From contig CAYQJV010000005.1 in assembly GCA_964417925.1 (NCBI GenBank), forward strand, positions 176-64,175: 64,000 nt of DNA, read 5' to 3'. Below are positions 22,138 through 53,852 of this stretch, piece after piece. The stretch comes from an uncultured bacterium (GTDB lineage: Bacteria; Hydrothermota; Tepidihabitantia; B3-TA06; CAYQJV01). Numbering within the stretch: position 1 is the first letter of the stretch; each line of letters begins with the position of its first letter. A program made the position numbers and the translations under genes. The notes under the pieces were generated by a model that saw only the letters and a list, made by a program, of their open reading frames with translations, was not told the origin of the DNA and did no database searches.

Positions 22138-23871
22138 TTACCTTATTAAGGTAATCTTACCAGAGTAAGTACCTTTTTCTGTTTTTAAAGTGTAGAAGTA
22201 TATGCCTGAACTAAGGCCTGGAACTTTTATCTGATTGTTTCCACGTGTTACATTTAACGTTCTTTCAAAGACCTTTCTGCCTGCAGTATTGTAAAGTACA
22301 ATACGAGCATTATCAACAGCAGTTTTTGAAGTTATATGTATAGCACCTGTTCCTCCAAACACTGTAATGTTTTCAGAAACCACGGCCTCCTCAATTCCTA
22401 CGGTTGTGGGTACTTTTAGTATCACAGGAAGATATTTGTCGTAAATTGTTGCAAGTTCATCGTTAAGCAGATGAGTATAGTAAACATCTCTTCCATCTAA
22501 CTGTTCACAGAAGAATATGTGAGCAACTGCAGTACTGTCATCCACAATCTGAAGGTTCTTTGCTACATGAGGCCTACATTCAGTCTCTTCCTCAGTATTT
22601 GTAACATTTGCCTCACTAAGATCGTTCCACTCCACCCCTCTGTTCCAACTATACCTTACGTATATATCCCACCTTATTCCTTCTCCAGCTGTGGAATCTG
22701 CAATATCTTCCTGCTGCCCCCATACCGCTGCAATCCATTTATCAGAAGTAGCCAAACTTATACAACCAGGGTCTACAAGTGGTGCTATTGCACCTGGATC
22801 AGGCTCTGCATTTACAAGAAATGCGGTATCACTAACTTCAGGAATGTATACATACACTGCACCAAAAGGAGGATATCTTCCTGTCTGGTCATAGTATTCA
22901 TACCGAGAATAGATAAATGCAGGAGAACCATCATCAAACAATGCAACCTGTAAATCCACATAAGCTGGTTGACCTTCTTTGAATAGATGGAATGTATCAA
23001 TTACAGGAACATAAAACTCTATAGGTTGAGGGGATGACCAGGTTTCTCCTTCATCTTCTGAGGTTACATAATAATACCCATGAGAATTATTATCCCATGC
23101 CGCCACAATTATCTTGTCTCCTCTAACATCCCAACCAGAAAGAAAAACTGCATCTCCTAAATCTGGGAACAATTGTGTCTGTACCTCAGTAGAGGTAAAA
23201 TCATCCAAGGTTCTATAAAACCATACAGCACCCTTATCAGTTCCTAAAGTAATCTGCATTACAATACCAATGGCACCACTCTCCAGCTGTTTTCCTATCA
23301 CTTTATGACAATCAATATCACCTCCTAAGGGAAGAGGATCATCCCATACTCCACTTCCCCATCCACCAGAACCATATGCTCCAGCAGGAATCCCCCAGGC
23401 AGGACCTTCTGTCAACACAGGGAATGTAGCTCTTGGATAATCGTCATAGGAAACCACTGCTGTAGGATACCTTCCTCCAGGATTTGACCCAGAAATTCCA
23501 AACTCTCCCCTAAAAATGGTATCAGCAATATTTTCTGAAGTAAATTGATCAGATGAACTATGTGCTATTATAATTCCTGTAGGATCAAGACCTCTATTCA
23601 CTATCAACACATAACCAGCTTCTGGATTCCAAGAAATACATTCATGTAATGCCCCAAAAAGACATCCCCAAGCATGGCCTGAAGAGTCTACAATAACTCC
23701 TGTGCTGAATTTCACATCAGGAGAAGGCGAAATATAACGGCCATTCTCCGCATCAAAAGGACTGTACTTATTAAGTATCATCGCACTTTTATTGAGTTCG
23801 TTAACAGGTATATACATTGCTGCTGTTAACACACTCACCATAAAAACACTTAATAACATCTTCTTCATCAT
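22138..23871 (-). CDS. BNR/Asp-box repeat secreted protein with T9SS C-terminal sorting domain
   Basis: Signal peptide, SxDxGxTW-type repeat (TSEDEGETWSS), C-terminal CTD (ARIVLYNTAGRKV...SGIYFYTLKTEKGTYSGKITLIR). Confidence 0.7.
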   Translation of the reverse strand: MMKKMLLSVFMVSVLTAAMYIPVNELNKSAMILNKYSPFDAENGRYISPSPDVKFSTGVIVDSSGHAWGCLFGALHECISWNPEAGYVLIVNRGLDPTGIIIAHSSSDQFTSENIADTIFRGEFGISGSNPGGRYPTAVVSYDDYPRATFPVLTEGPAWGIPAGAYGSGGWGSGVWDDPLPLGGDIDCHKVIGKQLESGAIGIVMQITLGTDKGAVWFYRTLDDFTSTEVQTQLFPDLGDAVFLSGWDVRGDKIIVAAWDNNSHGYYYVTSEDEGETWSSPQPIEFYVPVIDTFHLFKEGQPAYVDLQVALFDDGSPAFIYSRYEYYDQTGRYPPFGAVYVYIPEVSDTAFLVNAEPDPGAIAPLVDPGCISLATSDKWIAAVWGQQEDIADSTAGEGIRWDIYVRYSWNRGVEWNDLSEANVTNTEEETECRPHVAKNLQIVDDSTAVAHIFFCEQLDGRDVYYTHLLNDELATIYDKYLPVILKVPTTVGIEEAVVSENITVFGGTGAIHITSKTAVDNARIVLYNTAGRKVFERTLNVTRGNNQIKVPGLSSGIYFYTLKTEKGTYSGKITLIR

Positions 23872-26754: not shown

Positions 26755-27341
26755 TCAATACCTGTTTCTATAAGTTTCCAGAATGCCCCTGATTCATTGC
26801 GTTGCACAATACCGGTGTTGTTTTTGAACCAGTAGGTAAATTTAAATGTGTCTATCTTGATAATCTCTTGATAAGAAATACACCAAGCCTCTCCTGTTTC
26901 TAACTCTTCCATGCCATCCACATGTGCCTTTAGTATATAGGCGATATTTCCATTTTCATCGTATAAAGTATCGCTCCATTCTTTGTTTTTATAGAGAGGT
27001 AAATCTATCAATCTTATAAATCCTTTTGCTATCTCCTTTTTCTCCCCAAATTCTATGGTATCTTTTTTTATATACCTGCTTAAACCATTATCATTGTTTA
27101 AAAATGTAATATCTATGCCTTGCAAAACTATCTTGAACTCTATTCCTTCTATTATAGTATCTCCTATCACACTCCACTTTTCTTCACTCTCCTCTGAAGA
27201 ATAGATCCAATATCTTCCGTTCTCCAAAGGAAAACAAAAATCACTCTCCTCCTTCCACTGAGTACAGGAGAAAATACCCAGTAAGGTAATCAAACCATAG
27301 TGAAGCTTCACATTTTTCAATATACACATAAAACCACCCAT
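26751..27341 (-). CDS. secreted/lipoprotein-like protein of unknown function (196 aa)
   Basis: N-terminal hydrophobic segment with Cys (LLGIFSC); first gene after promoter region next to tRNA-Ile. Confidence 0.5.
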   Translation of the reverse strand: MGGFMCILKNVKLHYGLITLLGIFSCTQWKEESDFCFPLENGRYWIYSSEESEEKWSVIGDTIIEGIEFKIVLQGIDITFLNNDNGLSRYIKKDTIEFGEKKEIAKGFIRLIDLPLYKNKEWSDTLYDENGNIAYILKAHVDGMEELETGEAWCISYQEIIKIDTFKFTYWFKNNTGIVQRNESGAFWKLIETGIE

Positions 27342-27366: not shown

Positions 27367-27394
27367 TTGACATAAAAAAAGTTTTATGTATTAT
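27367..27394 (+). promoter_or_regulatory. sigma70-like promoter for tRNA-Ile (TTGACA 27367-27372, TATTAT 27389-27394)
   Basis: Consensus -35, 16-bp spacer, -10-like hexamer about 10 nt before tRNA 5' end. Confidence 0.4.
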
Positions 27395-27403
27395 TTATAA
27401 AAA

Positions 27404-27477
27404 GGGCCTATAGCTCAGTCGGTCAGAGCGCGCGCCTGATAAGCGCGAGGTCGGTGGTTCGAATCCACCTGGGCCCA
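27404..27477 (+). tRNA. tRNA-Ile (anticodon GAT)
   Basis: Cloverleaf: acceptor GGGCCTA/TGGGCCC, D-loop AGCTCAGTCGGTCAGAGC, anticodon loop CTGATAA, T-loop GGTTCGAATCC. Confidence 0.9.
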
Positions 27478-27480
27478 TGT

Positions 27481-28305
27481 ATGGGAAAGTACTTGAAGAT
27501 ATTATGTACACTGGTGTTTTTCTTCTATTGCAATCCTATTTTTTCTCCCTTAGGACTTGTAGAAATAAAAGGAGTAATAGAAAATCCCGAAGAAATAATA
27601 AAGGAAATAAATTTTTTTAAAAACAATCCACAGATCAAAGGTGTTTTAGTTAGAATAGAATCACCTGGAGGAAGTGTTGCAGCATCTCAAGAGATATATG
27701 AAGCCTTAAAAGAGTTAAAGAAATGTGGGAAAAAAATAGTAGTTTCCATGGGAAATATTGCAGCTTCTGGTGGATATTATGTCGCGCTTCCTGCGGATGT
27801 AATAGTTGCAAATCCGGGGACAGTAACTGGATCAATTGGTGTGATAGTAGAATACCCGGTGGTTGAGAAACTTTTAAAAAAAGTTGGAGTGGATGTTGAG
27901 GTAATAAAGTCTTCTGAGTTTAAAGATATTCTTTCACCATTTAGAAGGCCAAAGGAAAAAGAAAAAAATATATTGAAGAACGTAGTAATGGATATATACG
28001 ATCAGTTTGTGGAAAAAGTGGCAAGGGAAAGAAAGATTCCTGTAGATAGTGTAAAAAAAATAGCAGATGGAAGAATAATGTCCGGGAGGGAGGCTTTGAA
28101 ATTAGGATTGGTTGACAGCTTAGGAGGTATAGAAAAAGCAAAAAAAATCCTTGCTAAATTATGTAAGGTAAAGGAACCGGTTAAACTTTTCAAATTAAAA
28201 AAGAAGAAATCCTTACTTAAAGAGATTATAGAAGGAAGTATATTTTGTACTGACCTTCTTCCCATCAGGCCTTATCCAGTGCTTAAGTATTTGTATAAAC
28301 TTTGA
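27481..28305 (+). CDS. sppA: signal peptide peptidase SppA (36K type)
   Basis: ESPGGSVAASQEIYEAL and GNIAASGGYY (Ser) motifs of S49 family; start moved to ATG 27481 because ORF-track start overlaps the tRNA. Confidence 0.8.
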   Translation: MGKYLKILCTLVFFFYCNPIFSPLGLVEIKGVIENPEEIIKEINFFKNNPQIKGVLVRIESPGGSVAASQEIYEALKELKKCGKKIVVSMGNIAASGGYYVALPADVIVANPGTVTGSIGVIVEYPVVEKLLKKVGVDVEVIKSSEFKDILSPFRRPKEKEKNILKNVVMDIYDQFVEKVARERKIPVDSVKKIADGRIMSGREALKLGLVDSLGGIEKAKKILAKLCKVKEPVKLFKLKKKKSLLKEIIEGSIFCTDLLPIRPYPVLKYLYKL

Positions 28306-31300
28306 AAGAGAATAAAGTTTATATTCCTCTTGTACCTCCTACAGTATTAACTAAATACATAGAAACAAAAAATAACTTCATTACAAAAAGAAAATCTATT
28401 CTTCTATTAACCGACATCTCTGGTTTTACAAAGTATACAGAAAGTCTTGTAGGAAGGAAAAAAGAGAATATAGAAAACATAACGAAAATTCTTAACCAGC
28501 ATTTTGAAACCATGGATAAAGAAGTTTCAAGATATAAAGGCTTCCTGGTAAGGTATGCAGGGGATTCTATGCTTGCAATGTTTGGAGGAGAAAAAGCCCA
28601 AGAAAGGGCCATAGAGGCAGGATGGAGAATAATAGATTCCATGGAAAAATTAAAAAAAGAGGAAGGACTGGATATAAAGGTAATAATAGGTGGAGGTGAA
28701 TTTTACGAAATGGTACTTGGAGACGAAGAAAAAAGAGAGTGGGCAATAACAGGAAGAGTAATTTCAGAAATGGCATCGGTAGAAAAACAGGTAGAAGCTG
28801 GAAATGTAATGGTAAAAAAAGAAATATATCAGGAAAAATTCCCTGAAATAGAAGAACCTCCTAAGATAACTGTTGAAGATGTTAAAGTATTTTATCCCGC
28901 CTCTCTTGAAAGACTTCCAGATACCACATTTAGGGGAGAGTATAGAATTGCAGCTACTGTATTTATAAATATTTATGGCTATGATGAAGAAAATCCTCAA
29001 TTTGAAGAGTTAAACAACTTTTTCATCTATATAAAGAATCAGGCAAAAAAATATGGAGGAATAGTTAACAAAATAGATATACATCATGAAGGGATAAAGA
29101 TAATGGTCGTTTTCGGAGCTCCTTTTGCAATAGCAGAGGAATACTTGAAAGCAGTAGAATTTGCAAGAAAAATAGTACATTACAAAACATCTTTAAAAAC
29201 AAAAGGTACAGTAGGACATGGGTATGTGTATGCAGGCTTTATTGGAGGAGACAGAAAAGAATACACCATCATAGGAAGTTCTGTAAATACCTCTGCAAAA
29301 CTTTTGTCTTTTACTGCGAACAGAGAGATAATTATTTCTGAAGAGTTAAAAAAGAATCTTGAAGATGTTTATTCTTTCCTAAAGAAAGGGACCTTTGAAG
29401 TTCCTGGGATAGAAAAGAAAATTTGGTATTATAAATTACTGGATATAAAAAAAGAAAAAAAAGAAAAGATTACAGAATCCAGAGAAAAGATAATTAATAA
29501 AATTTTAAAAGAAATGGGAAAAAAAGAAAACAAAGTATTTATTATAGAAGGAGTAAGGGGGACAGGAAAATCTTTTATTGCAGATGCCATCATTCAAAAA
29601 TATAAAGGAAATTGGATTAATATAAGAGGAGAAGAAGGTATAGCCTATGAACTGTTCCGAAAGATTCTTGAAACAAATGCCGGGATTGAAATCCAGGATG
29701 ATAAAAAGAAAATTCAAAAAAAGTTAAATATGCATTTTCTATCGCTTAACCTCCCTCCTGAGTTTGAAAAAAAGATTCCCTTTATAGAAACTGTAATATT
29801 TGGGATTGAGCATCCAGAATTTATCATCACAAACTACCCTCCAGAACTGATAAAAGAAAACCTAAAAGAGGCATTCCGGATTTATTTAACACAGCTGTTT
29901 TATAATTCTCCTTTTCTATTGGTAGTGGATGACTTCCATAAAATGGATAAAGAAAGCATAGAAATTATCAGCCATTTTTTGAAAGGTATAGAACTGACAA
30001 AGGAAAAGGGAATTACAATGCTTTTTACGATGCTTCCCGAAGTTAACGAAACGTGGAAAGGCTATTCTAATGTGGAAATATTCAGGCTTCCAAGTTTTTC
30101 AAAAGAAGAGATAAAAGAACTGGGGCTTTTTTATTTCAACAAAGAACCTTCAGAAGATTTTGTTGAATTTTTATGGGGGAAAACCAAGGGGAACCCATCT
30201 TACACCATTCATATGATGGAACATATATTAAGAGAGCATCTCTTTAAAATAGATGAAAAGGTCCAACTTGCAGAAACAGCTAAACTCCAGGAAATACCTG
30301 AAACGGTGTATGGATTACTAATGTCTAAGGTTGATACTTTGCCCTTAGAAACCAAGGAGATTTTAAAAATAGGAGCAGTATACGGATTAAATTTTTCACT
30401 AAGCATTATCAAGAGGATCACCAAAAAGGAGAACATTCAATCCCTGCTCTCATTTGCATTAAAAGAAGGACTTATTTTAAAATTTTCAAATGGCGATGTA
30501 GAATATTTATTTGCAGAATCCATGACAAGAGAAGCGGTTTACAACTCTCTTTTATTGGAAGAAAGAAAAAAATTGCATAACCAGATTGCAGAAGAGGTTG
30601 AGAAAATGTATAAAGATACTGAAAGATTTTATCCTTTCCTTGCGCATCATTTCCATCAAGCAGAAATTTGGGAAAAAGCGTTCTGGTATTACTATCTTGC
30701 AGGAAAAGAAGATGCAAAATTCTATCGTAATGAACAAGCAGTAGAGAATCTTAGTAGAGCAATAGATATATGGAATGAAAAACTTGAAAATTCAGAGTAC
30801 AGAAAGGAAATATATGAATGCTATAAAACCAGAGGAATGGTAAATCTTTACTTAGGAAATCACCAGGATACATTGAATGATTTTTCAAAAGCAATTTCTT
30901 TTGCCAAGGAAAATAAAATGCTAAAAGAAGAAGTAGATTCTTTAAATAGATATGCAGATGTATTACTTGAGATAAGAAATAAAAAAGGTATAGATTATGC
31001 TACTCAAGCCCTTCAAAAAAGTAAAGAGATAGATTATATAAAAGGGATAGGCGATAGCTTCAGAGTAATGGGTAAGTACTACTTCTATATAGAAAATTCT
31101 CCTCAAAAATCCTTTGAATTCTTTAGTAAAGCAATGGAAAATTATTTGAGAGATCCTGCACTTAAAAAGGAATTGCTATCTGCATACATAGACCTTGCAG
31201 TAAATATGCGGAAACTTGCACAACCTCATAAAGCAGTAAAATTCTTTAACAAAGCAAAGGAACTTGCTGAAACCACAGGAGTGAAACATCTTGAACTTGT

Positions 31301-32708
31301 AACTTTAAGAAACATGGGGCATCTTTATTACGACGCAGGAGATATTAATAAAGCAGAAGAGTTATTGCAGAACGCTTTAAACATAGCTATGGAAATAGGG
31401 CATAGGGAAGAAAGTACAAAACTCATCACAGACCTTGCTAAAATAAAAATTACTCAGACGAAATTTAAAGAAGCAGTTGAACTACTCCAAAAGGCAAAGG
31501 AAAATCTACAATTTTTAAAATCAAAAAGGATTGAGGGTGAAATTGAAAAAGGACTTGGGTATGTAAACTTTTATACTGGAAACTATAATACTGCGTTAAT
31601 GCATTTTAAAGATGCAGCAAAAATATTTGAAGAAATAGATGAACCAAACGAACTTGTTGATTCCATGATAAACATTTCAATGATAGAAACTGTAAAAGAG
31701 GAGTTCAAAAAGGCACGTACGGATGTTGAAAAAACATTAGAAATAGCAAAAAGATTGAATAATCCATTTATTGAAGCTCAAGCTTTAAATATATTATCCA
31801 CCATACAACTCCATTACGGAGATTTTGAAAATGCGTATTCATCTGCAGAGCAATCAGTAGAAATAAGAAAGAAACTGAACGATCCCTGGGGAACTGCAGA
31901 AAGTCTTCTCACACTTATAGATGTCTGCTGGCAGATGGAACAATGGGAAAAGGGAATAGGATACTGTAATGAAACAGTTGAAATAGCAAGAACTCAGAAT
32001 CCTTTAATGGTATGTGATGCGATGAATGTAAAAGGAAGGATTCTTATAGACGCAGGTGACTATGAACAGGCGGAAAGAGTTTTATCTACTACCCTAAAAA
32101 TAGCAGAACAAACAAAAAGCATTGAGCATCTATTTAAAGTTCAATATAGCATTGGAAAGTTATACTTAGAACAAAAAAGGATAGAAAAAGTACTTGAAAT
32201 ACTGCCAAATCTTTATTCTGCCAACCAAAGTTTAAAATCGTATAACATAGATTTTCAAACTCGTATGATTTCTGCAGAAATTCACATAATCCAAAATAAT
32301 CCTAATGCATCCATTGAAGTATTAAAACCACCTGATGAGTGGGAAAAAGATAAACTCAGTTTTATCAACTTAATAGAAGGCTGGCTACTTTATACAAAAG
32401 CCCTCTTGGAAAAAAGAAACCTTGAGCTTGTGGAAGAATGCATAGTGAAATTAAAAAATATCATAAAAGGTAAAAATCTTTTATACAAGACCGCTTTAAT
32501 GCTTTTGTTAGAATACAATACTCAAAAATATAAATTGGAAAACAAGGCAAAGTTTGTACGTTTTATTATAAGTATGATAAACCCTTCGGTTAAAAGGATC
32601 TATAAAACACTACAAGAAGTTATAAAAAAGAAAGCAGATGAATTAAAGGAATTGAAGCCTTTTTATCTGAAAAAATGGGGTGCCATCCGATTTATAGATG
32701 AGAATTAG
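28302..32708 (+). CDS. 1468-aa signalling protein: tandem class-III nucleotidyl-cyclase homology domains + STAND/AAA NTPase + TPR repeats
   Basis: CHD1 has metal Asps (LLTDISGFT, YAGDSML); CHD2 lacks them but keeps GSSVNTSAKL (Asn, Lys); Walker A GVRGTGKS; long C-terminal TPR array. Confidence 0.8.
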   Translation: MKENKVYIPLVPPTVLTKYIETKNNFITKRKSILLLTDISGFTKYTESLVGRKKENIENITKILNQHFETMDKEVSRYKGFLVRYAGDSMLAMFGGEKAQERAIEAGWRIIDSMEKLKKEEGLDIKVIIGGGEFYEMVLGDEEKREWAITGRVISEMASVEKQVEAGNVMVKKEIYQEKFPEIEEPPKITVEDVKVFYPASLERLPDTTFRGEYRIAATVFINIYGYDEENPQFEELNNFFIYIKNQAKKYGGIVNKIDIHHEGIKIMVVFGAPFAIAEEYLKAVEFARKIVHYKTSLKTKGTVGHGYVYAGFIGGDRKEYTIIGSSVNTSAKLLSFTANREIIISEELKKNLEDVYSFLKKGTFEVPGIEKKIWYYKLLDIKKEKKEKITESREKIINKILKEMGKKENKVFIIEGVRGTGKSFIADAIIQKYKGNWINIRGEEGIAYELFRKILETNAGIEIQDDKKKIQKKLNMHFLSLNLPPEFEKKIPFIETVIFGIEHPEFIITNYPPELIKENLKEAFRIYLTQLFYNSPFLLVVDDFHKMDKESIEIISHFLKGIELTKEKGITMLFTMLPEVNETWKGYSNVEIFRLPSFSKEEIKELGLFYFNKEPSEDFVEFLWGKTKGNPSYTIHMMEHILREHLFKIDEKVQLAETAKLQEIPETVYGLLMSKVDTLPLETKEILKIGAVYGLNFSLSIIKRITKKENIQSLLSFALKEGLILKFSNGDVEYLFAESMTREAVYNSLLLEERKKLHNQIAEEVEKMYKDTERFYPFLAHHFHQAEIWEKAFWYYYLAGKEDAKFYRNEQAVENLSRAIDIWNEKLENSEYRKEIYECYKTRGMVNLYLGNHQDTLNDFSKAISFAKENKMLKEEVDSLNRYADVLLEIRNKKGIDYATQALQKSKEIDYIKGIGDSFRVMGKYYFYIENSPQKSFEFFSKAMENYLRDPALKKELLSAYIDLAVNMRKLAQPHKAVKFFNKAKELAETTGVKHLELVTLRNMGHLYYDAGDINKAEELLQNALNIAMEIGHREESTKLITDLAKIKITQTKFKEAVELLQKAKENLQFLKSKRIEGEIEKGLGYVNFYTGNYNTALMHFKDAAKIFEEIDEPNELVDSMINISMIETVKEEFKKARTDVEKTLEIAKRLNNPFIEAQALNILSTIQLHYGDFENAYSSAEQSVEIRKKLNDPWGTAESLLTLIDVCWQMEQWEKGIGYCNETVEIARTQNPLMVCDAMNVKGRILIDAGDYEQAERVLSTTLKIAEQTKSIEHLFKVQYSIGKLYLEQKRIEKVLEILPNLYSANQSLKSYNIDFQTRMISAEIHIIQNNPNASIEVLKPPDEWEKDKLSFINLIEGWLLYTKALLEKRNLELVEECIVKLKNIIKGKNLLYKTALMLLLEYNTQKYKLENKAKFVRFIISMINPSVKRIYKTLQEVIKKKADELKELKPFYLKKWGAIRFIDEN

Positions 32709-33568
32709 TAACCCGCAACTCCCTGCTTTGTCTGGAATGCCCATCTAACTACCGCCTTCCAGGTGTTTCCATCCTTCCAGATGGAGTCTACAACAATTTT
32801 ACCATAGTAGTTATCCCATGTGGCTATCTCGTATATCATACCAACCGATACCTTCATACTATCCGAATAATTTGAAGTATTGGCTTCTCCTTCTATATGC
32901 TCATACCATTCTTCTGCAGATTTATTAGGATTTCTAATATAAGCATCGTTTCCACTATCCCACATCTTCTTAGGAGATTTAAAAACAAGGTAAGGTTTAT
33001 CATCTGGAACAAGGTCTACTACAAAGTCTATTTTATCTTTATTTTCTTCTACAGCCTCACACACCTCAGGATGCCCTGTATTTCTATTGAAACCAAATGC
33101 ATTCATATTACCTGCGGTGAGAAGTATTGCACCCCAGGAAAGTTCCATTGTTCCCGTGGGTCTTGGATAAAAGGCATAAAGTCGTGAACCTTCATCAAGA
33201 GGATCACCTTCCACCACTGCTCTTATCTGTACAACGTATTTAGTTCCGTTGCTCAATCCCTCTACTGTTTGAATGGTGTTTTCAGTTATTGGAACATTGT
33301 TAACTTTATATTCCTCTGCTTCTTCTGCAGAAAGATCTTTTAAGGAGGAGTCTTCGCTCACATATACATTTATTCCATCCATTCCTTGAGGAAGCTCCTC
33401 AGGAAGTCCTTCAATAACTATGTCAACCTTCTGGTCATCGGGACGGTTTTCAACATCTAAACTATCAACAATTTCTTTTATCTTCGTTATATCTGGTGGT
33501 TTTGGTATACAAGCAAGACCTATAAATAAAACTGTAATCAATAACACTATAAACTTTTTCATATACAC
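32705..33568 (-). CDS. lipoprotein of unknown function (lipobox GLAC)
   Basis: Signal peptide plus Cys, acidic secreted domain; stop codon overlaps the stop of the convergent 28302-32708 gene. Confidence 0.6.
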   Translation of the reverse strand: MYMKKFIVLLITVLFIGLACIPKPPDITKIKEIVDSLDVENRPDDQKVDIVIEGLPEELPQGMDGINVYVSEDSSLKDLSAEEAEEYKVNNVPITENTIQTVEGLSNGTKYVVQIRAVVEGDPLDEGSRLYAFYPRPTGTMELSWGAILLTAGNMNAFGFNRNTGHPEVCEAVEENKDKIDFVVDLVPDDKPYLVFKSPKKMWDSGNDAYIRNPNKSAEEWYEHIEGEANTSNYSDSMKVSVGMIYEIATWDNYYGKIVVDSIWKDGNTWKAVVRWAFQTKQGVAGY

Positions 33569-33639
33569 CTCCTTGTTATTAAAGAACGGATGGCACCCCT
33601 TTTATTTTATCTTTTAGAATTTTCTTGTCAAGCAAATTT

Positions 33640-36600
33640 TCATACTACACTCTTTAACTCTTTGCTTAATCTTATGATCTCTCTTATAATAAATAGATTA
33701 TTATAAAATTTTCTTCTGTATTCCTGTGGAATGCTTTTTATCTCTTCTTTTAGAAATTCAAGAGATTTTTTTATATATTTTTTTGCATGCAAAATTTTTT
33801 TATGAAAAAGCAGTATGCGAATATGAACATATAAAAGTATTAATTCCCCTGCCTTTTCCTTCCTCTCCTCCCTTAAACTCTTACAGGAAAGGTAAAAAGC
33901 CTTAAGAGGAGCTTCCTCTATATAAGAAAGAGCAAGATAGGAGAGAAGGATGGGAAAATATCTTGTGTATCCTGTTTCTTGAGCAACTTTTATACATCTA
34001 TTTATAAGTTTTCTTGCCTTATCGTACTCTTTTTTAAGAAGCATCACCCACGAAAGATGTTTTAAGTTTTCCATTACCCAAGATTTGTCTCCTATTTTCT
34101 CAAAAATTACAAGTGATCCTTTTAAAAATCTTTCTGCCTTTTCCAACTCTCCGGTGTTTAAATACAAAAATCCAATATTTGAAAGCACGGAAGCAATTCC
34201 AGGCTTTTCATTGAGTTTCACTCTTATCCGATACGCCTCCCAGTAATATTTAAGAGCCTTCTCTAAATCTCCTAATCTCCCATATAAAGAGGCTAAGTTT
34301 GCATAACGGTATGCGGCGCTTCTGCGGTAGTTGAATTTAACTGCGTAATCCAGTACCTGTTCCATTACTTTTATCGCTTCCTTATATCTTTTCAAAAGTA
34401 TAAGCATCGTACCTTCATTTCCTTTTACCCTCAACCAAGTATGCATATCTCCTGATTTATACGCCATCTCTGCTGCTTCTTTAAAGTAGTGATACGCTCT
34501 ACCAAAGTCACCTTTATGGTAAAAGTACGTCGCTTTTTGAGCAAGAATATGGGCTTTTTGGTAAATATCCACCTTACCTGACTTTTCCGCTTTTTCTATC
34601 CATTCTGCTGCTTTTTCCAGTTCTCCCTCTGTGATAAGATACAACGAAAGATTTAACATGTTGCGGTAATCTTCACTTATGGAAGGAGAAGACTCTATTG
34701 CCTCGGCTGTCTCCTTTATGGCCTCCCGGATATTGCCAATTCGGTAAAGAACATTTCCATATTCGTATTTTACCAATTTATACAGTACTGGCAATTTATC
34801 TTTATGAAGCGTCACATCATTTTTTAGATTTTGAAAGATCTCCGCTGCTTTTTTGTTGTTTTCTAACACATACATCTCATACTCTGCAGTATAATAACGA
34901 AGTTTAAACCGATACTCTATTTCATTAAGCACTAGGGTGAGCCCTTCCATTACTTTAAGATAATAAAGAATCTTATCCCTTTTACGAAGTTTTATTAAAC
35001 TTTTTAAAATTTTCTCAATCAAAAGGAAACTTTCCTTATAAAGGCTTTTTTTATCAGTATAAACTTTATTCATGTTAACAAGTGCATTTTCATAAAACTT
35101 AAATGCCTCTTCAAATGAATAGTTGTGATACGCTCTATCTCCTGCCTCTATTAAATAAGGAAGTGCCTTTTCCCAATTCTCGGCTCTTGAATAGTGGAAA
35201 GCCACTGCTTCTATAAACTCCTTGTTGTAGTTCAACCGTTTTTCATACCACTCTGCTATCAAGTTATGGAACCTTCTCCTTTCTCTGAAAGGCAAAAGAT
35301 TGTAAGCAGTATTCCTTATAAGCTCATGTTTAAAAAGGTATTTAAGTCTTTCAGGTTCGTATATCAAGCCATAATTTTTTAAAGAATTAAGTACAAAACG
35401 AAGATTTTCTTTTATTTCTGGGTTAAGATATTCTGCTATCTTAAAATCAAACTCCTGTCCAACCACCGAAAGCCTCTTCAGTGTGTCCTTCTCTTCTGCA
35501 CCAAGAAGATCTATCCTTGCAAGGATAAGTGAATATATAGTAGAAGGAAATTCCTCCTTTTTCTCTGTTTTTAATACATGTTTAGTAAGTTCCTCCAAAA
35601 AGAATGGATTACCCGCACCTATCCTTATTACTTCTTCAGGAACCGAAACATCTCCTGCTATAGATTTTATGATTTTATCTGCACTTTCAGGTGAAATTTC
35701 TCTTAATCGGAGTTGAAACCTGTGTTGTAGTGTAGCAAATGACCTTTCAATTCTTTCCTCTGGCCTTTGGGAAATAATAAAAAGTATGGGGAATCCTTTT
35801 AAACCCGAGTAGAGATAGTTTATTAATTCTACAGTAGCATTATCAAGCCATTGTGCATCGTCAATTGCAAATATTGTGGGAGTCTCTTTTAATCTCTGTT
35901 TTAGGATATCAAGCACGAGTAAAGAAAATTTATCTTTTATATTGCTTATTGTAGGACTTTTATCTCCCTTCCATCCCAATACCTGCATGAAAAGCTCTCT
36001 TTCCCATTCTTCTTTACCCAGTCTTTTGAAGATTCTATCCATCTCTCTTCTATACCTTACTTCATCAAAACTGTATGGAAGAGTAAAAAAATCTTTAAAA
36101 AATGCTCTAAAAGGAAAATAAGGAACATCTTGATAGAATACAGAGCCTTTAAGCATGTATGTCTTTATACCTAATTTTTCGGCCTTTTTCTTTATCTCAT
36201 GAATAAACCTTGTTTTTCCCATCCCTGCTTGAGCAATTATATGAACTAAACTTCTATTACCTTCAATACTTTTTGATAATATTTGCATCACCTCCAATAC
36301 CTCTTTTTCTCGCCCTACAAAAGGAGTAAAATAGAAAGGTTTGCTCTTCTTTTCTTTTGTAAGAATCCAAGCATCCTTTAAAAAGTTTGTTTTCTCAAGT
36401 AACAGGGAGTGTTTCTTCTTAAATAAAAACAAAACTCCGCTTTTCTTTTTTACCTCATCCCCTACTAATACTTCCTCAACTTTTGCTATTCTAAGCAATC
36501 TTTCTGCCTTGTTCACCGAGTTTCCTATTATGGTAAACTCTTTTCTATTTTTACTTCCTATGGTTCCTGCAAAACTTCTACCCGATGTAACGGAAATTTT

Positions 36601-37578
36601 AAAAGCAACTTTTTTCTCTTCTAAAAACTTTTTAATCTCAAGACCCGCATAAAGAGCGGGAATCCCTGGTTCTTCTTTTAGCGCAGGTAATCCAAATACT
36701 GCCATTATTCGGCTACCTTTAAAATATGGCTCAACCTTATTTATGAATCCTCCAAATCTTTCCACTATCTCATCCACCTTACTAAATACCGCAGAGTAAA
36801 AATCCGCATCTATGGGAAGGTTCCACCAGTTTATAAACAACGTGGCCATATACCGATGTTCATCCGAAAAATCCATTATTTTGGAGTGCGGAAGAAATTT
36901 AAGCATCTGTTCCGTGTCCTTAAAATCAACCGTTGAAGTAAAAGATGGTATCTTTCTTGATATCTCAGAGATGTTTGGAAATTCTGATGGCTCTATTGCT
37001 CTATACCTTCCAATACGCCTACCTATGGGGTTCTTTGGACCCTTATTATAGAAACTCTCCACCACCACGATTTCTCCAGGTCTTGCTATAGCCTCTGCAA
37101 TCATTGCCTGGGATGGAACCTCTCCAATTATTACCCTCTCCTTCCTTTCTTTACCTTCAACCAGAATTTCATAAAATTCTCCTGCGCTTACTCCAGCAGA
37201 AACTGAAAGTATAAACTCCTTTCCATCTATATTTAATTTCTTTCTATGCCATTTTAAGATTACACTCTTCAGCAATGAGAGTACATCATCTCTATAATCC
37301 ATAGGAAAATAAAAAAGTAATCCATCCCCACTAAACTTCAAAAGCACTCCACCTCCCTCCCTCATGGAGGCGATGATATCTCCAAAATAATCGTTGAGTA
37401 TCTCAACAAGTTGTTCTATACCTTGAGAGCCTTTTTTATCAAAGTAATCGGTCAAGGCAGAAAAACCAGAAATATCCAAAAATATTATAATTCCTTGCTC
37501 TTTGATTTTCCCGCCCTTGTGTACCTTCTCTATAAAAGAGGTCATATCCTTGGGGAAATATACAGATATTTCATTCAT
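33640..37578 (-). CDS. 1312-aa paralogous tandem-cyclase-homology/STAND NTPase/TPR protein
   Basis: CHD1 IIFLDISGFS and FSGDGLL; CHD2 TIIGNSVNKAERL (Asn, Arg); Walker A AQAGMGKT; TPR-rich C-terminus. Confidence 0.8.
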   Translation of the reverse strand: MNEISVYFPKDMTSFIEKVHKGGKIKEQGIIIFLDISGFSALTDYFDKKGSQGIEQLVEILNDYFGDIIASMREGGGVLLKFSGDGLLFYFPMDYRDDVLSLLKSVILKWHRKKLNIDGKEFILSVSAGVSAGEFYEILVEGKERKERVIIGEVPSQAMIAEAIARPGEIVVVESFYNKGPKNPIGRRIGRYRAIEPSEFPNISEISRKIPSFTSTVDFKDTEQMLKFLPHSKIMDFSDEHRYMATLFINWWNLPIDADFYSAVFSKVDEIVERFGGFINKVEPYFKGSRIMAVFGLPALKEEPGIPALYAGLEIKKFLEEKKVAFKISVTSGRSFAGTIGSKNRKEFTIIGNSVNKAERLLRIAKVEEVLVGDEVKKKSGVLFLFKKKHSLLLEKTNFLKDAWILTKEKKSKPFYFTPFVGREKEVLEVMQILSKSIEGNRSLVHIIAQAGMGKTRFIHEIKKKAEKLGIKTYMLKGSVFYQDVPYFPFRAFFKDFFTLPYSFDEVRYRREMDRIFKRLGKEEWERELFMQVLGWKGDKSPTISNIKDKFSLLVLDILKQRLKETPTIFAIDDAQWLDNATVELINYLYSGLKGFPILFIISQRPEERIERSFATLQHRFQLRLREISPESADKIIKSIAGDVSVPEEVIRIGAGNPFFLEELTKHVLKTEKKEEFPSTIYSLILARIDLLGAEEKDTLKRLSVVGQEFDFKIAEYLNPEIKENLRFVLNSLKNYGLIYEPERLKYLFKHELIRNTAYNLLPFRERRRFHNLIAEWYEKRLNYNKEFIEAVAFHYSRAENWEKALPYLIEAGDRAYHNYSFEEAFKFYENALVNMNKVYTDKKSLYKESFLLIEKILKSLIKLRKRDKILYYLKVMEGLTLVLNEIEYRFKLRYYTAEYEMYVLENNKKAAEIFQNLKNDVTLHKDKLPVLYKLVKYEYGNVLYRIGNIREAIKETAEAIESSPSISEDYRNMLNLSLYLITEGELEKAAEWIEKAEKSGKVDIYQKAHILAQKATYFYHKGDFGRAYHYFKEAAEMAYKSGDMHTWLRVKGNEGTMLILLKRYKEAIKVMEQVLDYAVKFNYRRSAAYRYANLASLYGRLGDLEKALKYYWEAYRIRVKLNEKPGIASVLSNIGFLYLNTGELEKAERFLKGSLVIFEKIGDKSWVMENLKHLSWVMLLKKEYDKARKLINRCIKVAQETGYTRYFPILLSYLALSYIEEAPLKAFYLSCKSLREERKEKAGELILLYVHIRILLFHKKILHAKKYIKKSLEFLKEEIKSIPQEYRRKFYNNLFIIREIIRLSKELKSVV

Positions 37579-37600
37579 TTAATTTAATATATTGCTGAAT

Positions 37601-37623
37601 ATTAATTTGTCAAACAAATTAAT
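37601..37623. promoter_or_regulatory. perfect 9-bp inverted repeat ATTAATTTG-N5-CAAATTAAT in divergent promoter region
   Basis: Palindrome between divergent 33640-37578(-) and yitT(+); TTGACA at 37643-37648 downstream; candidate operator. Confidence 0.35.
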
Positions 37624-37680
37624 GCATCAAAAGTTGTATTATTGACAAAAGATATCCATTGAGTAAACTTATAACTCATT

Positions 37681-38553
37681 ATGAAAAAAATAAAGTTGAA
37701 GATTAAATGGAAGGATGAGTTTATAGATGGTATTTTTATACTTATAGGATCTGCAATTCTTGGTGTGGGATATGCCTTTTTCCTCATTCCCCATCATATT
37801 GTTCCAGGAGGATTAGGAGGACTTTCCATTGTTATCAATTATCTCATTGGCATCAGTGTGGGTACCGGATATGTAATTTTAAACATACCTGTATTTATCT
37901 TGGGTATTAAAAATCTTGGATTTAGATATGGAATAAAAAGTCTTATAGGAATACTCTTATCATCCTTTTTCATAGATCTTTTTTATAAGTTTCTGAGCTT
38001 ACCTACTGCTACAGGCAGTAAACTACTGGCATCGGTATACGGAGGAGCATTACTTGGACTTGGACTTGGTATAGTATTCAGAGGCCATGCCTCAACAGGA
38101 GGAACAGATGTAATAGGACAGGTAATAAATAAATTTACAAATCTGAGTGTAGGAATCGGCATTCTTATAGTAGATTTTGTTATAATCTCTCTTTCTGGAG
38201 TTGTTTTTAGATCTTTTGAATTACCCCTTTACGGTTACCTTGCACTTTTTATTTCTTCCAAAGTGGTGGATTTTGTACTTGAAGGGTGGGGATATGCAAA
38301 AATGGTGATAATAATTACAGATAAGGAGGAGAAAATAAAAGATGTAATACTTTCTAAAATGAACCGAGGAGTAACCGGGCTTAAGTCAATCACAGGATAT
38401 CGTAAAAAAGAGACTGAAGCACTTCTTGTAGTGGTTGCTAAAAAGGAAATACCCGTTTTAAAACAATACGTAAAGACAATAGACCCAAAAGCTTTTGTGA
38501 TCATTTCAGATGTTTATGAAGTTTTGGGAAAGGGCTTTAGACCCCGAATATAA
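37681..38553 (+). CDS. YitT-family membrane protein (DUF161/DUF2179)
   Basis: N-terminal multi-TM region and C-terminal DUF2179-like domain (LVVVAKKEIPVLKQYVKTIDPKAFVIISDV). Confidence 0.7.
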   Translation: MKKIKLKIKWKDEFIDGIFILIGSAILGVGYAFFLIPHHIVPGGLGGLSIVINYLIGISVGTGYVILNIPVFILGIKNLGFRYGIKSLIGILLSSFFIDLFYKFLSLPTATGSKLLASVYGGALLGLGLGIVFRGHASTGGTDVIGQVINKFTNLSVGIGILIVDFVIISLSGVVFRSFELPLYGYLALFISSKVVDFVLEGWGYAKMVIIITDKEEKIKDVILSKMNRGVTGLKSITGYRKKETEALLVVVAKKEIPVLKQYVKTIDPKAFVIISDVYEVLGKGFRPRI

Positions 38554-51692: not shown

Positions 51693-53852
51693 ATGCAAAA
51701 AGAAACCCAACTTTTAAGGAATATTTTTGAAAGAATTAAAAAGTTCAAAAATTGGAAATTAAAGGTGGAAATATCCAACGAAGAAAGGGACAAAGATAAA
51801 AGTATTGCATTAAAAATAGGGGATAGAACTCTTTTGATCTCAGGATTTAAGGAATCTGAGAAAAATGTTATCAATGAAATTATAGAAATAATCTATGAAG
51901 CAGAACGATTCAAAATGGAAAAGTACACAGATACAATGACAGGACTCTTTAATAAAGAGTATTTTATGCAAAAAATGAAGGAAAACATAGAAAAACTGCG
52001 CCAAGAACTTCTCAATAAGGAAAAAAAAGAACACAGGAAAAGTTTTGATTTAAGTATGCTTCACATTGACCTTGACCATTTCAAAAGAATAAACGATACC
52101 TGGGGGCACAGCATAGGGGATGCTGTGTTAAAATCCTTTGCCTGTTACATTGAAAATTTCTCACTTTCCTATTTTAAAGAAGACACTGAAGTTATCACCG
52201 CAAGACTTGGAGGAGAAGAATTTGGAATTCTCCTCCCCAACACTCCTGGAACCATAGCACGAAGTTTCGCAGAAACTCTACTTGAAAATCTAAAATCAAA
52301 AAGTATAGTAAAAAAAGAAAAAGATATCCCCTCCATATCAGTAACTGCAAGCATTGGAGTTGCAACACTTAAAAGTGCTGAATGTTTATCAGGAAACTTT
52401 AATGCAGATGCCTTAGCATCAAAACTTTACAATGACGCCGATGTTGCAACCTATGTTGCTAAGAAACTTGGCAGAGCCAGAGTAATAGCCTATGAAAGAA
52501 TAAAATACGAAGGGGGTACAGTAATAGATTATGATGAAACTACAGAGATAGTGGTGATAGACATAGGAAGTGATATGGGGGTGAATGTTGGTGATATCTT
52601 TAAAGTTTATGATAATAAAAAATTTACTGGAGAAAGCCCTATTTATGAACCAGGCTCAAAGGAGAAAATCATAGGGTATTACCCTAAGATTCCCTTAGGC
52701 GAAATAGAAGTAATAATGGTACAGCCTGGTGTTTCATTTGCAAAAAGAATAGGTACTGAACCTTTTACAGTAAAGCCAGGTTTTGTACTTGAGTACTCAA
52801 CAAGGGAGAGGGATAAAACCTCTGTGGAAAGAAGAAAAAGAGAAAGAAGAGCAAAAGGATTCATCTCTGAGAGAGGTATTTTTGAAAAAAGATTGGCCGA
52901 GGTTTCCTCTCAGGAAAGTTTTATAGTAAGCATAATGGCAATGGACAATTTCAGGATAATAACCGACAGACTGGGAAGTGCAAGAGTAGAGAAGCTTTAC
53001 AAAAAGGTTATCAAAGATATAGACAGCTTTCTGCCAGAAGGTTCTATAATGGCGAGACTCTCAAATGAAGAGATAGGAATAATTCCATCCCATATGGAGG
53101 ATAAAGAGATTAAAAGAATCTTTGAAGGTATAATAGAGGAATTAAAAAATCAAGAAAACATTGGTTTTTCTGCAGGGATATACAGTGCCCTAAAATGGGA
53201 AAAGGGAAGAAAGTATGCTTTAGAATGTGCACGAAAAGCACTTGAAATTGCGAGATTTGAGGGGGGTGCCAAAGTAGTAATATTTGATGAAAAGAATGCA
53301 ACCAAAAAACTTGAATTTTACATAAAACATAGAGATTACGAACATATTTTGGAGGAATACAACAGCTTGATAAAACTGGGACTTTCGGTCAAGGGATTGA
53401 GAAGTGTGTATGCAGAGGCTCTTTACTACTTTGGAAAACTTGAAGAAGCCTTAAAGGAAAATCTTACTGCATTGAAAGAATCTCCAAACAATCCAGAGAT
53501 TTTAAAAAACATTGCCTATACTTATCTTGAACTGGGAAGGGCCGAAGAGGCACTTAGATACTTTAAAAAATTGGAAGAGAATAATCAACTGTATGAAATT
53601 GCAAAAGACGCTCCTTGGATATTTAGAGATTATGGAATAGTGCTTTACAACTTGGGTAAATACAGGGAAGCCGAGAAGAAATTAACTGAGGCCGTTCAGC
53701 TGGAGAATACGGATGCCATGTCCTATTATTATAGGGCTATGTGTAGAGTAAAAGAGAAAGAAATTGAAAAGGCAAAGGAAGATTTAATAAAGGCAGTAGG
53801 TCTTGGTTATAAGGAACTATCTGAAGAGGCATCAAAAATTTTAGGAGGTTAA
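51693..53852 (+). CDS. diguanylate cyclase (GGDEF, active-site GGEEF) with second degenerate GGDEF-like domain and C-terminal TPR repeats
   Basis: TGLFNKEYF...[14 protein letters not shown]...[11 protein letters not shown]; second domain has SNEEIG; TPR array at C-terminus. Confidence 0.8.

What the first reader, a model, noticed from the sequence alone, without database searches (positions are those of the whole stretch)
28302..37578. Convergent pair of giant tandem-cyclase / STAND-NTPase / TPR proteins flanking a lipoprotein
Two paralogs (1468 and 1312 aa) have identical domain order but lack the HTH that such AC-ATPase proteins carry in actinobacterial MalT-like regulators, so the cyclase itself is the likely output. 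The effector - STAND NTPase - TPR sensor layout is also that of antiviral STAND (Avs-like) defence proteins, so a nucleotide second-messenger-producing immune sensor is a plausible alternative to a housekeeping signalling role. The two genes converge on a small lipoprotein gene whose stop overlaps the stop of the plus-strand paralog.
Basis: partly seen in the sequence, partly recalled or inferred. Interest (0 to 1): 0.7.

Follow-up and report, generated by a model that had tools for sequence, protein, structure and literature searches.

The report
Two bacterial soluble-adenylyl-cyclase-like signalling proteins
The two giant genes are bacterial relatives of the animal "soluble adenylyl cyclase" (two fused cyclase domains, then a molecular-switch ATPase and a TPR sensor), a widespread and already described kind of signalling protein that sits here among housekeeping genes, with no sign of an antiviral role.

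Summary
Gene A (28302-32708, +, 1468 aa) and gene B (33640-37578, -, 1312 aa) both read tandem cyclase domains, AAA_16 STAND NTPase, TPR, with no HTH. A 285-aa lipoprotein gene lies between them, and its stop codon overlaps A's.

Proteins with this architecture dominated every homologue search; none is closer than 28% identity to A or B apart from A's orthologue. No Avs profile matches, and the neighbours are core genes (SppA, TonB/ExbBD, ClpX, Lon, DivIVA).

A and B are old family members (21% identity), not a recent duplication. Only A plus the lipoprotein is syntenic in a relative. B is canonical. A alone has Lys for the transition-state Arg and Leu for the NTPase sensor-1 Arg, so it may be weak or non-catalytic.

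Verdict: a new member of a known kind, of low interest.

The parts
27367..27394 (+). Promoter-like site (TTGACA-16-TATTAT) upstream of sppA. It probably drives an sppA-A transcript.
   Evidence: It matches 11 of 12 consensus positions and is intergenic. The site count for the region is not above the shuffle expectation, so this is a consensus match only.
27454..28305 (+). sppA-like signal peptide peptidase (Peptidase_S49). Its stop overlaps the start of gene A by 4 nt (cTTTGA).
   Evidence: Pfam PF01343 at E 1.2e-50; sequence at 28296-28305.
28302..32708 (+). Gene A, 1468 aa: an sAC-like tandem cyclase - STAND NTPase - TPR protein of a divergent lineage.
   Evidence: The TTG start is supported by an N-terminal alignment from residue 1 with B and by the public gene call.
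28377..28886 (+). A cyclase domain 1 (C1-like, aa 26-195). It has both metal-binding Asp residues, D38 (DISGF) and D88 (AGD).
   Evidence: Aligned to sAC D47/D99. These positions are conserved in 50 of 51 family members.
28917..29456 (+). A cyclase domain 2 (C2-like, aa 206-385). It has no metal Asp. It carries K257, T322 and N329, but K333 where the transition-state Arg (sAC R416) should be.
   Evidence: The K is unique among 51 family members and is also present in the 55% orthologue (VNTTAKLL).
29469..30551 (+). A NOD module (aa about 390-750): AAA_16 NBD with Walker A GVRGTGKS, Walker B LLVVDD and the GxP motif GNPSY, followed by a winged helix. The sensor-1 Arg is replaced by Leu578.
30555..32291 (+). 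A arm plus TPR sensor superhelix (aa about 752-1330).
   Evidence: TPR_12 at E 9e-39 and TPR_MalT at E 4e-25. The AF2 model (aa 1-1100) shows helix pairs from 752 to its end at 1100; beyond that the extent rests on Pfam TPR_MalT to aa 1327.
32705..33562 (-). Lipoprotein gene, 285 aa (lipobox FIGLA|C), with two beta-sandwich (FN3-like) domains. Its stop codon overlaps A's stop by 2 nt. The function is unknown, and it is probably not part of the cyclase mechanism.
   Evidence: The AF2 model has pLDDT 71 and only weak FN3 matches. The orthologue keeps the convergent overlap with the A orthologue.
33604..33631 (-). Promoter-like site (TTGACA-16-TAAAAT) in the B-lipoprotein gap. The lipoprotein is probably transcribed on its own.
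   Evidence: It matches 11 of 12 consensus positions and is intergenic; a consensus match only.
33640..37578 (-). Gene B, 1312 aa: an sAC-like tandem cyclase - STAND NTPase - TPR protein with all canonical catalytic residues.
36994..37512 (-). B cyclase domain 1 (C1-like, aa 23-195): DISGF and SGD metal Asp residues, plus a Lys at the sAC K95 position.
36394..36873 (-). B cyclase domain 2 (C2-like, aa 236-395): Lys, Thr, Asn and Arg at the sAC K334/T405/N412/R416 positions (FTIIGNSVNKAERL).
35239..36336 (-). B NOD module (aa about 415-780): Walker A AQAGMGKT, Walker B IFAIDD, sensor-1 SQRPE, GxP motif GNPFF.
   Evidence: Pfam AAA_16 at E 3.4e-14; family table; alignments A1 and A2.
33904..35211 (-). 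B arm plus TPR sensor (aa about 790-1225).
   Evidence: TPR_12 at E 5e-24 and TPR_MalT at E 6e-10.
37586..37613 (-). Promoter-like site (TTGACA-16-TATATT) ending 7 nt before B's ATG. The B mRNA may be leaderless.
   Evidence: a consensus match only.

Best explanation
Both genes encode cytoplasmic members of the soluble-adenylyl-cyclase-like (ADCY10-type) family of class III cyclases.

In each polypeptide two cyclase homology domains pair with each other. Domain 1 supplies the two metal-binding aspartates. Domain 2 supplies the substrate Lys/Thr pair and the transition-state Asn/Arg. This gives one ATP-to-cAMP active site per molecule, as in sAC (shown at the level of sequence and fold; activity is inferred).

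The cyclase module is fused to a MalT-type STAND switch (NBD-HD-WHD, arm, TPR superhelix). By analogy with MalT and PH0952, an unknown ligand bound by the TPR sensor would release autoinhibition, allow ADP/ATP exchange and oligomerisation, and so change cAMP output (inferred). With no HTH present, cAMP is the output.

B has every catalytic residue and is predicted to be an active, regulated adenylyl cyclase. A belongs to a divergent lineage in which the cyclase transition-state Arg is Lys and the NTPase sensor-1 Arg is Leu. Both changes are conserved in its orthologue, so A is probably a low-activity or nucleotide-binding regulatory variant.

This is housekeeping-type signal transduction, not an antiviral system. 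The lipoprotein is a conserved neighbour of A with no evident mechanistic link.
For: Relation to sAC:
- A residues 1-400 and B residues 1-420 both hit human sAC best (E 4e-24 and 1e-23), with C1 and C2 collinear.
- A 44-sequence family profile matches the sAC chain at 16-471 as one stretch, E 6e-85. The next non-ADCY10 cyclase scores 2e-40.

Catalytic residues, in 51 tandem-domain homologues:
- Domain 1 keeps both Asp residues in 50 of 51.
- Domain 2 keeps Asn in 48 of 51 and Arg in 49 of 51.
- B is canonical at all 14 scored positions except the sAC bicarbonate-site Arg (R176), which most of the family also lacks.

STAND module:
- AAA_16 is found in 14 of 14 family members.
- The Walker A Lys and the GxP motif are invariant; Walker B and sensor-1 are invariant or near-invariant.

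Literature:
- Full-length sAC is described as C1-C2 plus a predicted STAND domain with a P-loop (PMC12802110).
- Bacterial (Chloroflexus) sAC-like cyclases are described (Kobayashi et al. 2004, as cited in PMC11006738).
- The STAND switch mechanism is described in PMC6468293.

How common the architecture is:
- 224 homologues at E<=1e-10 among the scored candidates.
- In the exhaustive search, 4321 cluster representatives score E<=1e-10, and most of the best 150 are 1250-1500 aa proteins matched across both domains from their N-terminus.

Context:
- The neighbours are SppA, TonB/ExbB/ExbD, YitT, DivIVA, PNP, a BamD-like protein, trigger factor, ClpX, Lon and RNase Y.
- G+C across the locus (0.32-0.35) lies within the window's range of 0.32-0.41.
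Against: - No enzymatic evidence exists for these proteins.
- A has Lys at the position of the Arg that is otherwise kept in 49 of 51 members, and it lacks sensor-1 Arg. Cyclase activity and ATP hydrolysis by A are therefore doubtful.
- The sAC bicarbonate site is not conserved. R176 is Ala in A and Met in B, and K95 is Arg in A, so sAC-style bicarbonate activation cannot be assumed.
That is a lead, not a test.
- A sequence profile of the NTPase against the PDB gave only weak P-loop hits.
- The ligand of the TPR sensors is unknown.
Confidence: 0.75

Rival explanations
1. Antiviral STAND (Avs-like) sensor. The TPR domain recognises a phage protein, the NOD oligomerises, and the cyclase makes a nucleotide second messenger that triggers abortive infection.
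For: - The layout of N-terminal effector, STAND NTPase and repeat sensor is shared with Avs proteins.
- Avs3 is a detectable structural match (Foldseek E 8e-11).
- Cyclase domains do serve as signal generators in other conflict systems (PMC7159879) and give weak PycC hits here.
- One family member elsewhere (L011) is followed by a WD40-caspase gene and has a TIR gene nearby.
- Defence and non-defence STAND clades are interspersed (PMC13581612).
Against: - No Avs/AVAST model matches A or B at E<=0.01. Only 1 of 14 family NTPase modules gives a weak Avs1b hit.
- The Avs3 match has a target-normalised TM-score (TMt) of 0.08, against 0.53 for PH0952.
- There is no adjacent cNMP-binding effector gene, and no defence or mobile genes anywhere in 64 kb.
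- Of the seven other loci inspected, six show no defence domains in their neighbours' listed Pfam hits (neighbours in L008 were identified by synteny with L002).
- The A-lipoprotein synteny is conserved at 55-60% identity.
- The closest characterised relative is a metabolic sensor (sAC).
- The 2026 STAND census does not mention cyclases in its main text.
Confidence: 0.06
2. Paralogue A is not an enzyme. Its tandem cyclase-like module only binds ATP or another nucleotide (as proposed for the P. aeruginosa 6YII protein), and its NOD binds nucleotide without hydrolysing it. A would then act as a sensor or scaffold, possibly hetero-oligomerising with a canonical family member such as B.
For: - A is the only one of 51 family members with Lys at the transition-state Arg and with Leu at sensor-1 Arg. 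Both changes recur in its 55% orthologue, so they are selected rather than decay.
- A and B are adjacent in this genome.
Against: - A keeps both metal Asp residues and the Lys, Thr and Asn. Lys retains the positive charge, so reduced activity is as likely as none.
- B is absent next to A in the relative, so an obligate A-B pair is not conserved.
- No interaction data exist.
Confidence: 0.3
3. A, the lipoprotein and B form one three-gene functional module, for example an envelope signal relayed through the lipoprotein to the cytoplasmic cyclases.
For: - The three genes are adjacent.
- The overlapping-stop arrangement of A and the lipoprotein is kept in a relative.
- Another family member (P0002) also has a convergent small gene with a 4-nt overlap.
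Against: - The lipoprotein is exported, while A and B carry no recognised membrane or export domain (no TM predictor was run).
- The gene convergent with P0002 is unrelated in sequence.
- B is replaced by an acetyltransferase operon in the relative.
- Each gene has its own promoter-like site.
- Convergent overlap is also what simple genome compaction would produce.
Confidence: 0.05

Closest known systems
Mammalian soluble adenylyl cyclase, full-length isoform (ADCY10 / sACfl)
   Same: - It has N-terminal C1-C2 tandem class III domains forming an intramolecular pseudo-heterodimer, with the same split of catalytic residues (Asp pair in C1; Lys/Thr/Asn/Arg in C2).
- It is the best sequence and fold match.
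- It has a C-terminal predicted STAND P-loop module (PMC12802110).
- It has no membrane domain and no HTH (own knowledge).
   Different: - Identity is only about 19%.
- The bicarbonate-site residue R176 is absent in both A and B, and K95 is kept only in B.
- sACfl is about 1610 aa and has a proposed haem domain and an autoinhibitory motif that were not looked for here.
Bacterial sAC-like cyclases (Chloroflexus aurantiacus; Kobayashi, Buck & Levin 2004)
   Same: They are described as bacterial cyclases with the functional domain structure of sAC (title and description as cited in PMC11006738). This is the kind to which A and B belong.
   Different: The paper itself was not available, so the residue-level comparison and bicarbonate responsiveness could not be checked. 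A and B come from an uncultured organism with FCB-like features (the Fibrobacterota-Chlorobiota-Bacteroidota group), not Chloroflexota.
P. aeruginosa class III adenylyl cyclase-like ATP-binding protein (PDB 6YII, deposited as 'transcriptional regulator')
   Different: It was deposited as an ATP-binding, cyclase-like protein belonging to a transcriptional regulator. A and B have no HTH, and B keeps all catalytic residues. Only 12% identity.
MalT / PH0952 (STAND NTPases with a repeat sensor)
   Different: Their effector is a DNA-binding domain, whereas here it is a tandem cyclase.
Mycobacterial AC-ATPase-HTH proteins (Rv0386 type)
   Same: They combine a class III cyclase with an AAA_16-type ATPase (own knowledge; the survey PMC2447327 appears).
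   Different: They have a single cyclase domain and a C-terminal LuxR HTH. A and B have two domains and no HTH.
Avs3 / AVAST antiviral STANDs
   Same: They share the general layout of effector, STAND NTPase and repeat sensor, and give a weak structural match.
   Different: They have different NTPase families (no PADLOC Avs match), cell-killing effectors instead of a cyclase, and defence-island contexts instead of a core chromosomal context.

Membership tests
sAC-like (ADCY10-type) tandem class III cyclase | Two cyclase homology domains in one chain, collinear with sAC C1-linker-C2. | tested here: met
sAC-like (ADCY10-type) tandem class III cyclase | Asymmetric active site: the metal Asp pair only in domain 1; substrate Lys/Thr and transition-state Asn/Arg only in domain 2. 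| tested here: met
   B is met at every position. A is met except Arg->Lys at the R416 position. The pattern is conserved in the family: 50 of 51 for the Asp pair, 48 of 51 for Asn, 49 of 51 for Arg.
sAC-like (ADCY10-type) tandem class III cyclase | C-terminal P-loop STAND module homologous to that of ADCY10. | tested here: inconclusive
   The STAND module is present, and the literature says sACfl has one. afdb50 was unavailable.
sAC-like (ADCY10-type) tandem class III cyclase | Bicarbonate-binding pair K95 / R176 in domain 1. | tested here: not met
   R176 is Ala in A and Met in B, and it is Arg in only 1 of 51 family members. K95 is Arg in A and Lys in B.
sAC-like (ADCY10-type) tandem class III cyclase | Makes cAMP from ATP. 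| not testable with these tools
   This needs an enzyme assay.
STAND NTPase, MalT/AAA_16 type with TPR sensor | Walker A, Walker B (hhhhDD/ED), sensor-1 Arg, and the GxP motif in the helical domain. | tested here: met
   B has all four. A has Walker A, Walker B and GxP but Leu at sensor-1. AAA_16 is found in 14 of 14 family members.
STAND NTPase, MalT/AAA_16 type with TPR sensor | NBD-HD-WHD core followed by an arm and a repeat sensor. | tested here: met
STAND NTPase, MalT/AAA_16 type with TPR sensor | Inducer-dependent ADP/ATP exchange and multimerisation. | not testable with these tools
   The mechanism is taken from PMC6468293.
Avs / AVAST antiviral STAND | Match to an Avs family profile. 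| tested here: not met
   In PADLOC, A and B match only PycC and generic TPR models. Only 1 of 14 family NTPase modules gives a weak Avs1b hit, E 1.8e-4.
Avs / AVAST antiviral STAND | Defence-island or mobile-element context. | tested here: not met
   The window holds core genes only. Of the seven other loci inspected, only one (L011) has conflict-like neighbours. This is a small sample, not a statistical test.
Avs / AVAST antiviral STAND | Protects against phage. | not testable with these tools
   This needs a phage challenge.
Pycsar | A single cyclase gene paired with an adjacent effector that has a cNMP-binding domain. | tested here: not met
   PycC hits are weak (25-31 bits). The neighbours are SppA, a lipoprotein and YitT.
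MalT-like cyclase-ATPase-HTH regulators (Rv0386 / 6YII type) | A C-terminal LuxR/GerE-type DNA-binding domain. | tested here: not met
   There is no HTH family in either protein, nor in the C-terminal tails at E<=1.

The most novel reading that the evidence does not exclude
A and/or B are immune sensors of a not yet recognised cyclase-STAND class. The TPR domain detects a phage component, and the sAC-like module emits a cyclic nucleotide alarm. The catalytically odd paralogue A would then be a decoy or regulator.
Probability: 0.05. Interest if true: 0.8.

Novelty: new member of a known kind. Interest (0 to 1): 0.22.

Why it matters
On its own the locus adds two divergent, unannotated members to a large and already described family, so it matters little.

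Two points have modest value. First, the role of the STAND/TPR part of mammalian full-length sAC is still unknown: a 2025 biochemical study found no isoform-specific regulator (PMC12802110). Compact bacterial homologues such as B could serve as tractable models for how a STAND switch controls an intramolecular cyclase dimer. Second, paralogue A is a natural variant that has replaced both the cyclase transition-state Arg and the NTPase sensor-1 Arg and is conserved as such. It could show how these modules drift from enzymes to nucleotide sensors.

Tried and rejected
- **afdb50 fold search** was meant to see whether full-length ADCY10 orthologues match the STAND part, but the library was unavailable.
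- **Kobayashi et al. 2004** (PMC3644946) is not held. The supplements of the 2026 STAND census are not held either, so I could not check whether cyclase-STAND clades were scored as defence.
- **NTPase sequence profile against the PDB** gave only weak P-loop hits: ClpC, ORC1, Apaf-1 at 3e-4 and Sr35 at 9e-4. STAND assignment therefore rests on Pfam AAA_16 and the fold searches.
- **Looking for a named eukaryotic ADCY10** among the exhaustive-search hits found none in the ten I checked. One was a 5195-aa protist protein.
I keep this only as a lead.
The T9SS sorting domain and SusC-like receptors suggest the FCB group.
- **The A orthologue in L008** looked split into three ORFs. Comparison with L003 (97-99% nt identity) shows an N-run and gaps, so it is an assembly or masking artefact and not a pseudogene.
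- **The lipoprotein** has no Pfam, NCBIfam or PADLOC family. It has a single 60%-identical orthologue cluster in the protein database (also seen in the L008 MAG), and the fold search gives only weak FN3-like matches.
- **Recent tandem duplication of A and B** is rejected. Each ranks far down the other's hit list, 70th and 165th of 320.
- **Intrinsic terminators**: the count of terminator-like sites is not above the shuffle expectation (10 found against 7.1 +/- 3.5 expected), and none lies at the A/lipoprotein junction.
Full report
**1. Observation**

Gene A is 28302-32708 (+), 1468 aa, with a TTG start. Gene B is 33640-37578 (-), 1312 aa. A 285-287 aa ORF lies between them on the minus strand. 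Gene calls on an independent public assembly of the same organism give 1468, 285 and 1312 aa.

Pfam finds two Guanylate_cyc stretches, AAA_16 and strong TPR_12/TPR_MalT in A. In B it finds Guanylate_cyc (second domain), AAA_16 and TPR. B's first cyclase domain is too divergent for Pfam but aligns to sAC C1. A and B align collinearly from residue 1 at 21% identity, E 2e-43. No HTH is present, even when the C-terminal tails are scanned at E<=1.

The middle gene most likely starts at ATG 33562, behind a GGAGG. It has a signal peptide ending in the lipobox FIGLA|C, and its TAA stop shares two bases with A's TAG. Because it lies downstream of B on the same strand, the layout is A-> <-lipoprotein <-B.

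**2. What the cyclase module is**

The best solved relative of the first 400 residues of both proteins is human soluble adenylyl cyclase (ADCY10), with C1 and C2 matched in order: E 4e-24 for A and 1e-23 for B. A profile of 44 family members matches the sAC core as one uninterrupted stretch (profile 6-430 to chain 16-471) at E 6e-85. The best non-ADCY10 cyclase scores 2e-40.

Using the alignment to number residues, I tabulated the catalytic positions in 51 tandem-domain homologues.
- Domain 1 keeps both metal aspartates (sAC D47/D99) in 50 of 51.
- Domain 2 lacks them, but keeps the transition-state Asn in 48 of 51 and Arg in 49 of 51.
- The substrate pair is usually Lys/Thr, the adenylyl-cyclase and class IIIb signature (own knowledge of Linder & Schultz and Cann et al.).

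This is the C1/C2 division of labour seen in sAC. Each polypeptide should therefore form one active site and one degenerate site intramolecularly.

B is canonical at every catalytic position scored. A has Lys333 in place of the Arg, and is the only family member with that change.

The sAC bicarbonate pair is not conserved. R176 is Ala in A and Met in B, and is Arg in only 1 of 51 members. K95 is Arg in A and Lys in B.

**3. What the rest of the protein is**

All 14 sampled NTPase modules match AAA_16 (best E 4e-22), with minor weaker matches to NACHT, NB-ARC and nSTAND families. The family alignment shows an invariant Walker A Lys and GxP motif (GNPF), a near-invariant Walker B D/E-D, and a near-invariant sensor-1 Arg.

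A alone has Leu at the sensor-1 position. Both of A's odd substitutions recur in its 55% orthologue.

**4. Known relatives and how common the architecture is**

Full-length sAC is described as C1-C2 followed by a predicted STAND domain with a P-loop, citing Leipe et al. 2004 and Danot et al. 2009 (PMC12802110). Bacterial sAC-like cyclases with conserved domain structure were reported in 2004 (Kobayashi, Buck & Levin, as cited in PMC11006738; the paper itself is not held).

The authentic sequence must be used to confirm this.

The architecture is common.
- The word-indexed searches returned 45 hits for A and 224 for B at E<=1e-10. Many are annotated 'class 3 adenylate cyclase/TPR repeat protein'.
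- About 50 of 167 collected hits have two cyclase domains, including one from cultured Cystobacter fuscus.
- The exhaustive search with B residues 1-395 found 17,121 cluster representatives at E<=1e-3 and 4,321 at E<=1e-10. Most of the best 150 are 1250-1500 aa proteins matched across both domains from their N-terminus.

**5. Relationship of A and B, and synteny**

A and B are not a recent duplicate. Among 320 collected homologues, B ranks 70th for A and A ranks 165th for B.

A has an orthologue at 55% identity in hydrothermal-vent and Guaymas Basin metagenomes and in one MAG. There it is again convergent with the orthologue of the lipoprotein (60% identity), with overlapping stops. In those genomes, however, the position of B is occupied by an acetyltransferase/aminotransferase/amidohydrolase/tRNA-methyltransferase row.

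The conserved unit is therefore A plus the lipoprotein, not the 'pair flanking a lipoprotein'. The fragmented appearance of the orthologue in L008 is an N-run and gap artefact. Another family member (P0002) also has a convergent small gene overlapping by 4 nt, but that gene is unrelated to the lipoprotein.

Four promoter-like sites in the scanned region match 11 of 12 consensus positions, and all four fall in intergenic gaps: before sppA, before B, before the lipoprotein, and before the gene at 27341. This suggests three separate transcription units: sppA-A (4-nt stop/start overlap), B (possibly leaderless) and the lipoprotein. These are consensus matches only.

**6. Defence hypothesis**

PADLOC gives only weak generic PycC and TPR hits for A and B, and no Avs model. 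Family-wide, one weak Avs1b hit appears in 14 modules.

The 64-kb window encodes trigger factor, ClpX, a clostripain-like protease, SusC-like receptors, a T9SS cargo protein, TonB/ExbB/ExbD, SppA, YitT, a flavodoxin-like reductase, DivIVA, PNP, TPR/BamD-like proteins, OmpA-like and FG-GAP proteins, a GGDEF-TPR protein, RNase Y, Lon and a radical-SAM enzyme. Nothing mobile or defence-like is present, and G+C across the locus (0.32-0.35) lies within the window's range of 0.32-0.41.

Of the seven other loci with family members that I inspected, six show no defence domains among their neighbours. One (L011) has a WD40-caspase gene and a TIR gene nearby. This is a small sample and not a statistical test.

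Cyclase domains are used in some conflict systems (PMC7159879), and defence and non-defence STAND clades are interspersed (PMC13581612). The immune reading is therefore not excluded, but nothing here supports it. I put it at about 5%.

**7. Mechanism proposed**

Shown by sequence and fold:
- an intramolecular C1/C2 cyclase with an sAC-like active site;
- a MalT-type NOD and a TPR sensor;
- no DNA-binding domain.

Inferred from the STAND literature (PMC6468293), the resting protein is an ADP-bound closed monomer, autoinhibited by sensor-NOD contacts. An unknown ligand bound at the TPR sensor opens the NOD, ATP replaces ADP, and the protein multimerises, which changes cyclase output.

Because the active site is formed within one chain, oligomerisation is not needed to build it. 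Regulation is therefore more likely to work by relief of autoinhibition or by inter-subunit allostery. In mammals, full-length sAC has about 3-fold lower specific activity than the truncated catalytic form.

**8. Verdict**

Its 'cyclase is the output' inference is reasonable, with a caveat for A. Its Avs-like alternative is unsupported.

These are new, divergent members of the known sAC-like cyclase-STAND-TPR family (<=28% identity to anything but the orthologue) in an uncultured bacterium with FCB-like features. Interest is low. The only unusual points are A's paired loss of two catalytic arginines and the conserved stop-overlap with a lipoprotein gene.

Noticed in passing
window 37578-37613 (-) and 37642-37681 (+): The -10 element of the promoter-like site before gene B ends 7 nt before its ATG. 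The divergent yitT gene has a similar site 11 nt before its ATG. Both mRNAs may be leaderless or nearly so, whereas the lipoprotein gene has a strong GGAGG.
   Followed up: partly
window 51693-53852 (+): A 719-aa protein with a GGDEF diguanylate cyclase domain (two stretches) and C-terminal TPR repeats. It is a second TPR-coupled nucleotide cyclase in the same window.
   Followed up: no
family alignment, e.g. P0076-P0084: Twelve to thirteen of the 51 tandem-domain family members carry Glu/Gly instead of Lys/Thr at the substrate-specifying pair. From my own knowledge this resembles the guanylyl cyclase Cya2, so part of the family may make cGMP.
   Followed up: no
L011 12169-15351 and 18668-19300: One family member (P0079) is followed after 11 nt by a 1060-aa WD40 + caspase (Peptidase_C14) gene and has a TIR_2 gene 6 kb away. 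It is the only conflict-like neighbourhood among the loci inspected.
   Followed up: no
window 32705-32708; L003 2958-2961; L008 3499-3502; L006 12196-12199: Convergent genes with overlapping stop codons recur at the 3' end of A-type cyclase genes. In the two related genomes the partner is the lipoprotein orthologue. In L006 it is an unrelated 205-aa gene. No terminator-like site lies at the junction, so the transcripts would overlap antisense.
   Followed up: partly
window 7974-11138 (-) and 15401-18397 (-): Two large ORFs (1054 and 998 aa) have no Pfam match at E<=1e-5. Each sits just downstream (on the minus strand) of a SusC-like TonB-dependent receptor gene with a CarboxypepD_reg N-terminus.
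   Followed up: no
P0175 (EukProt transcriptome protein, 5195 aa): A giant eukaryotic protein with six matched stretches to the B tandem-cyclase query is among the top hits of the exhaustive search.
   Followed up: no
window 22138-23871 (-): A 577-aa protein ends in a type IX secretion sorting domain (Por_Secre_tail). Together with the SusC-like receptors, this points to an organism of the FCB group. The closest relatives come from hydrothermal-vent and Guaymas Basin sediment metagenomes.
   Followed up: partly
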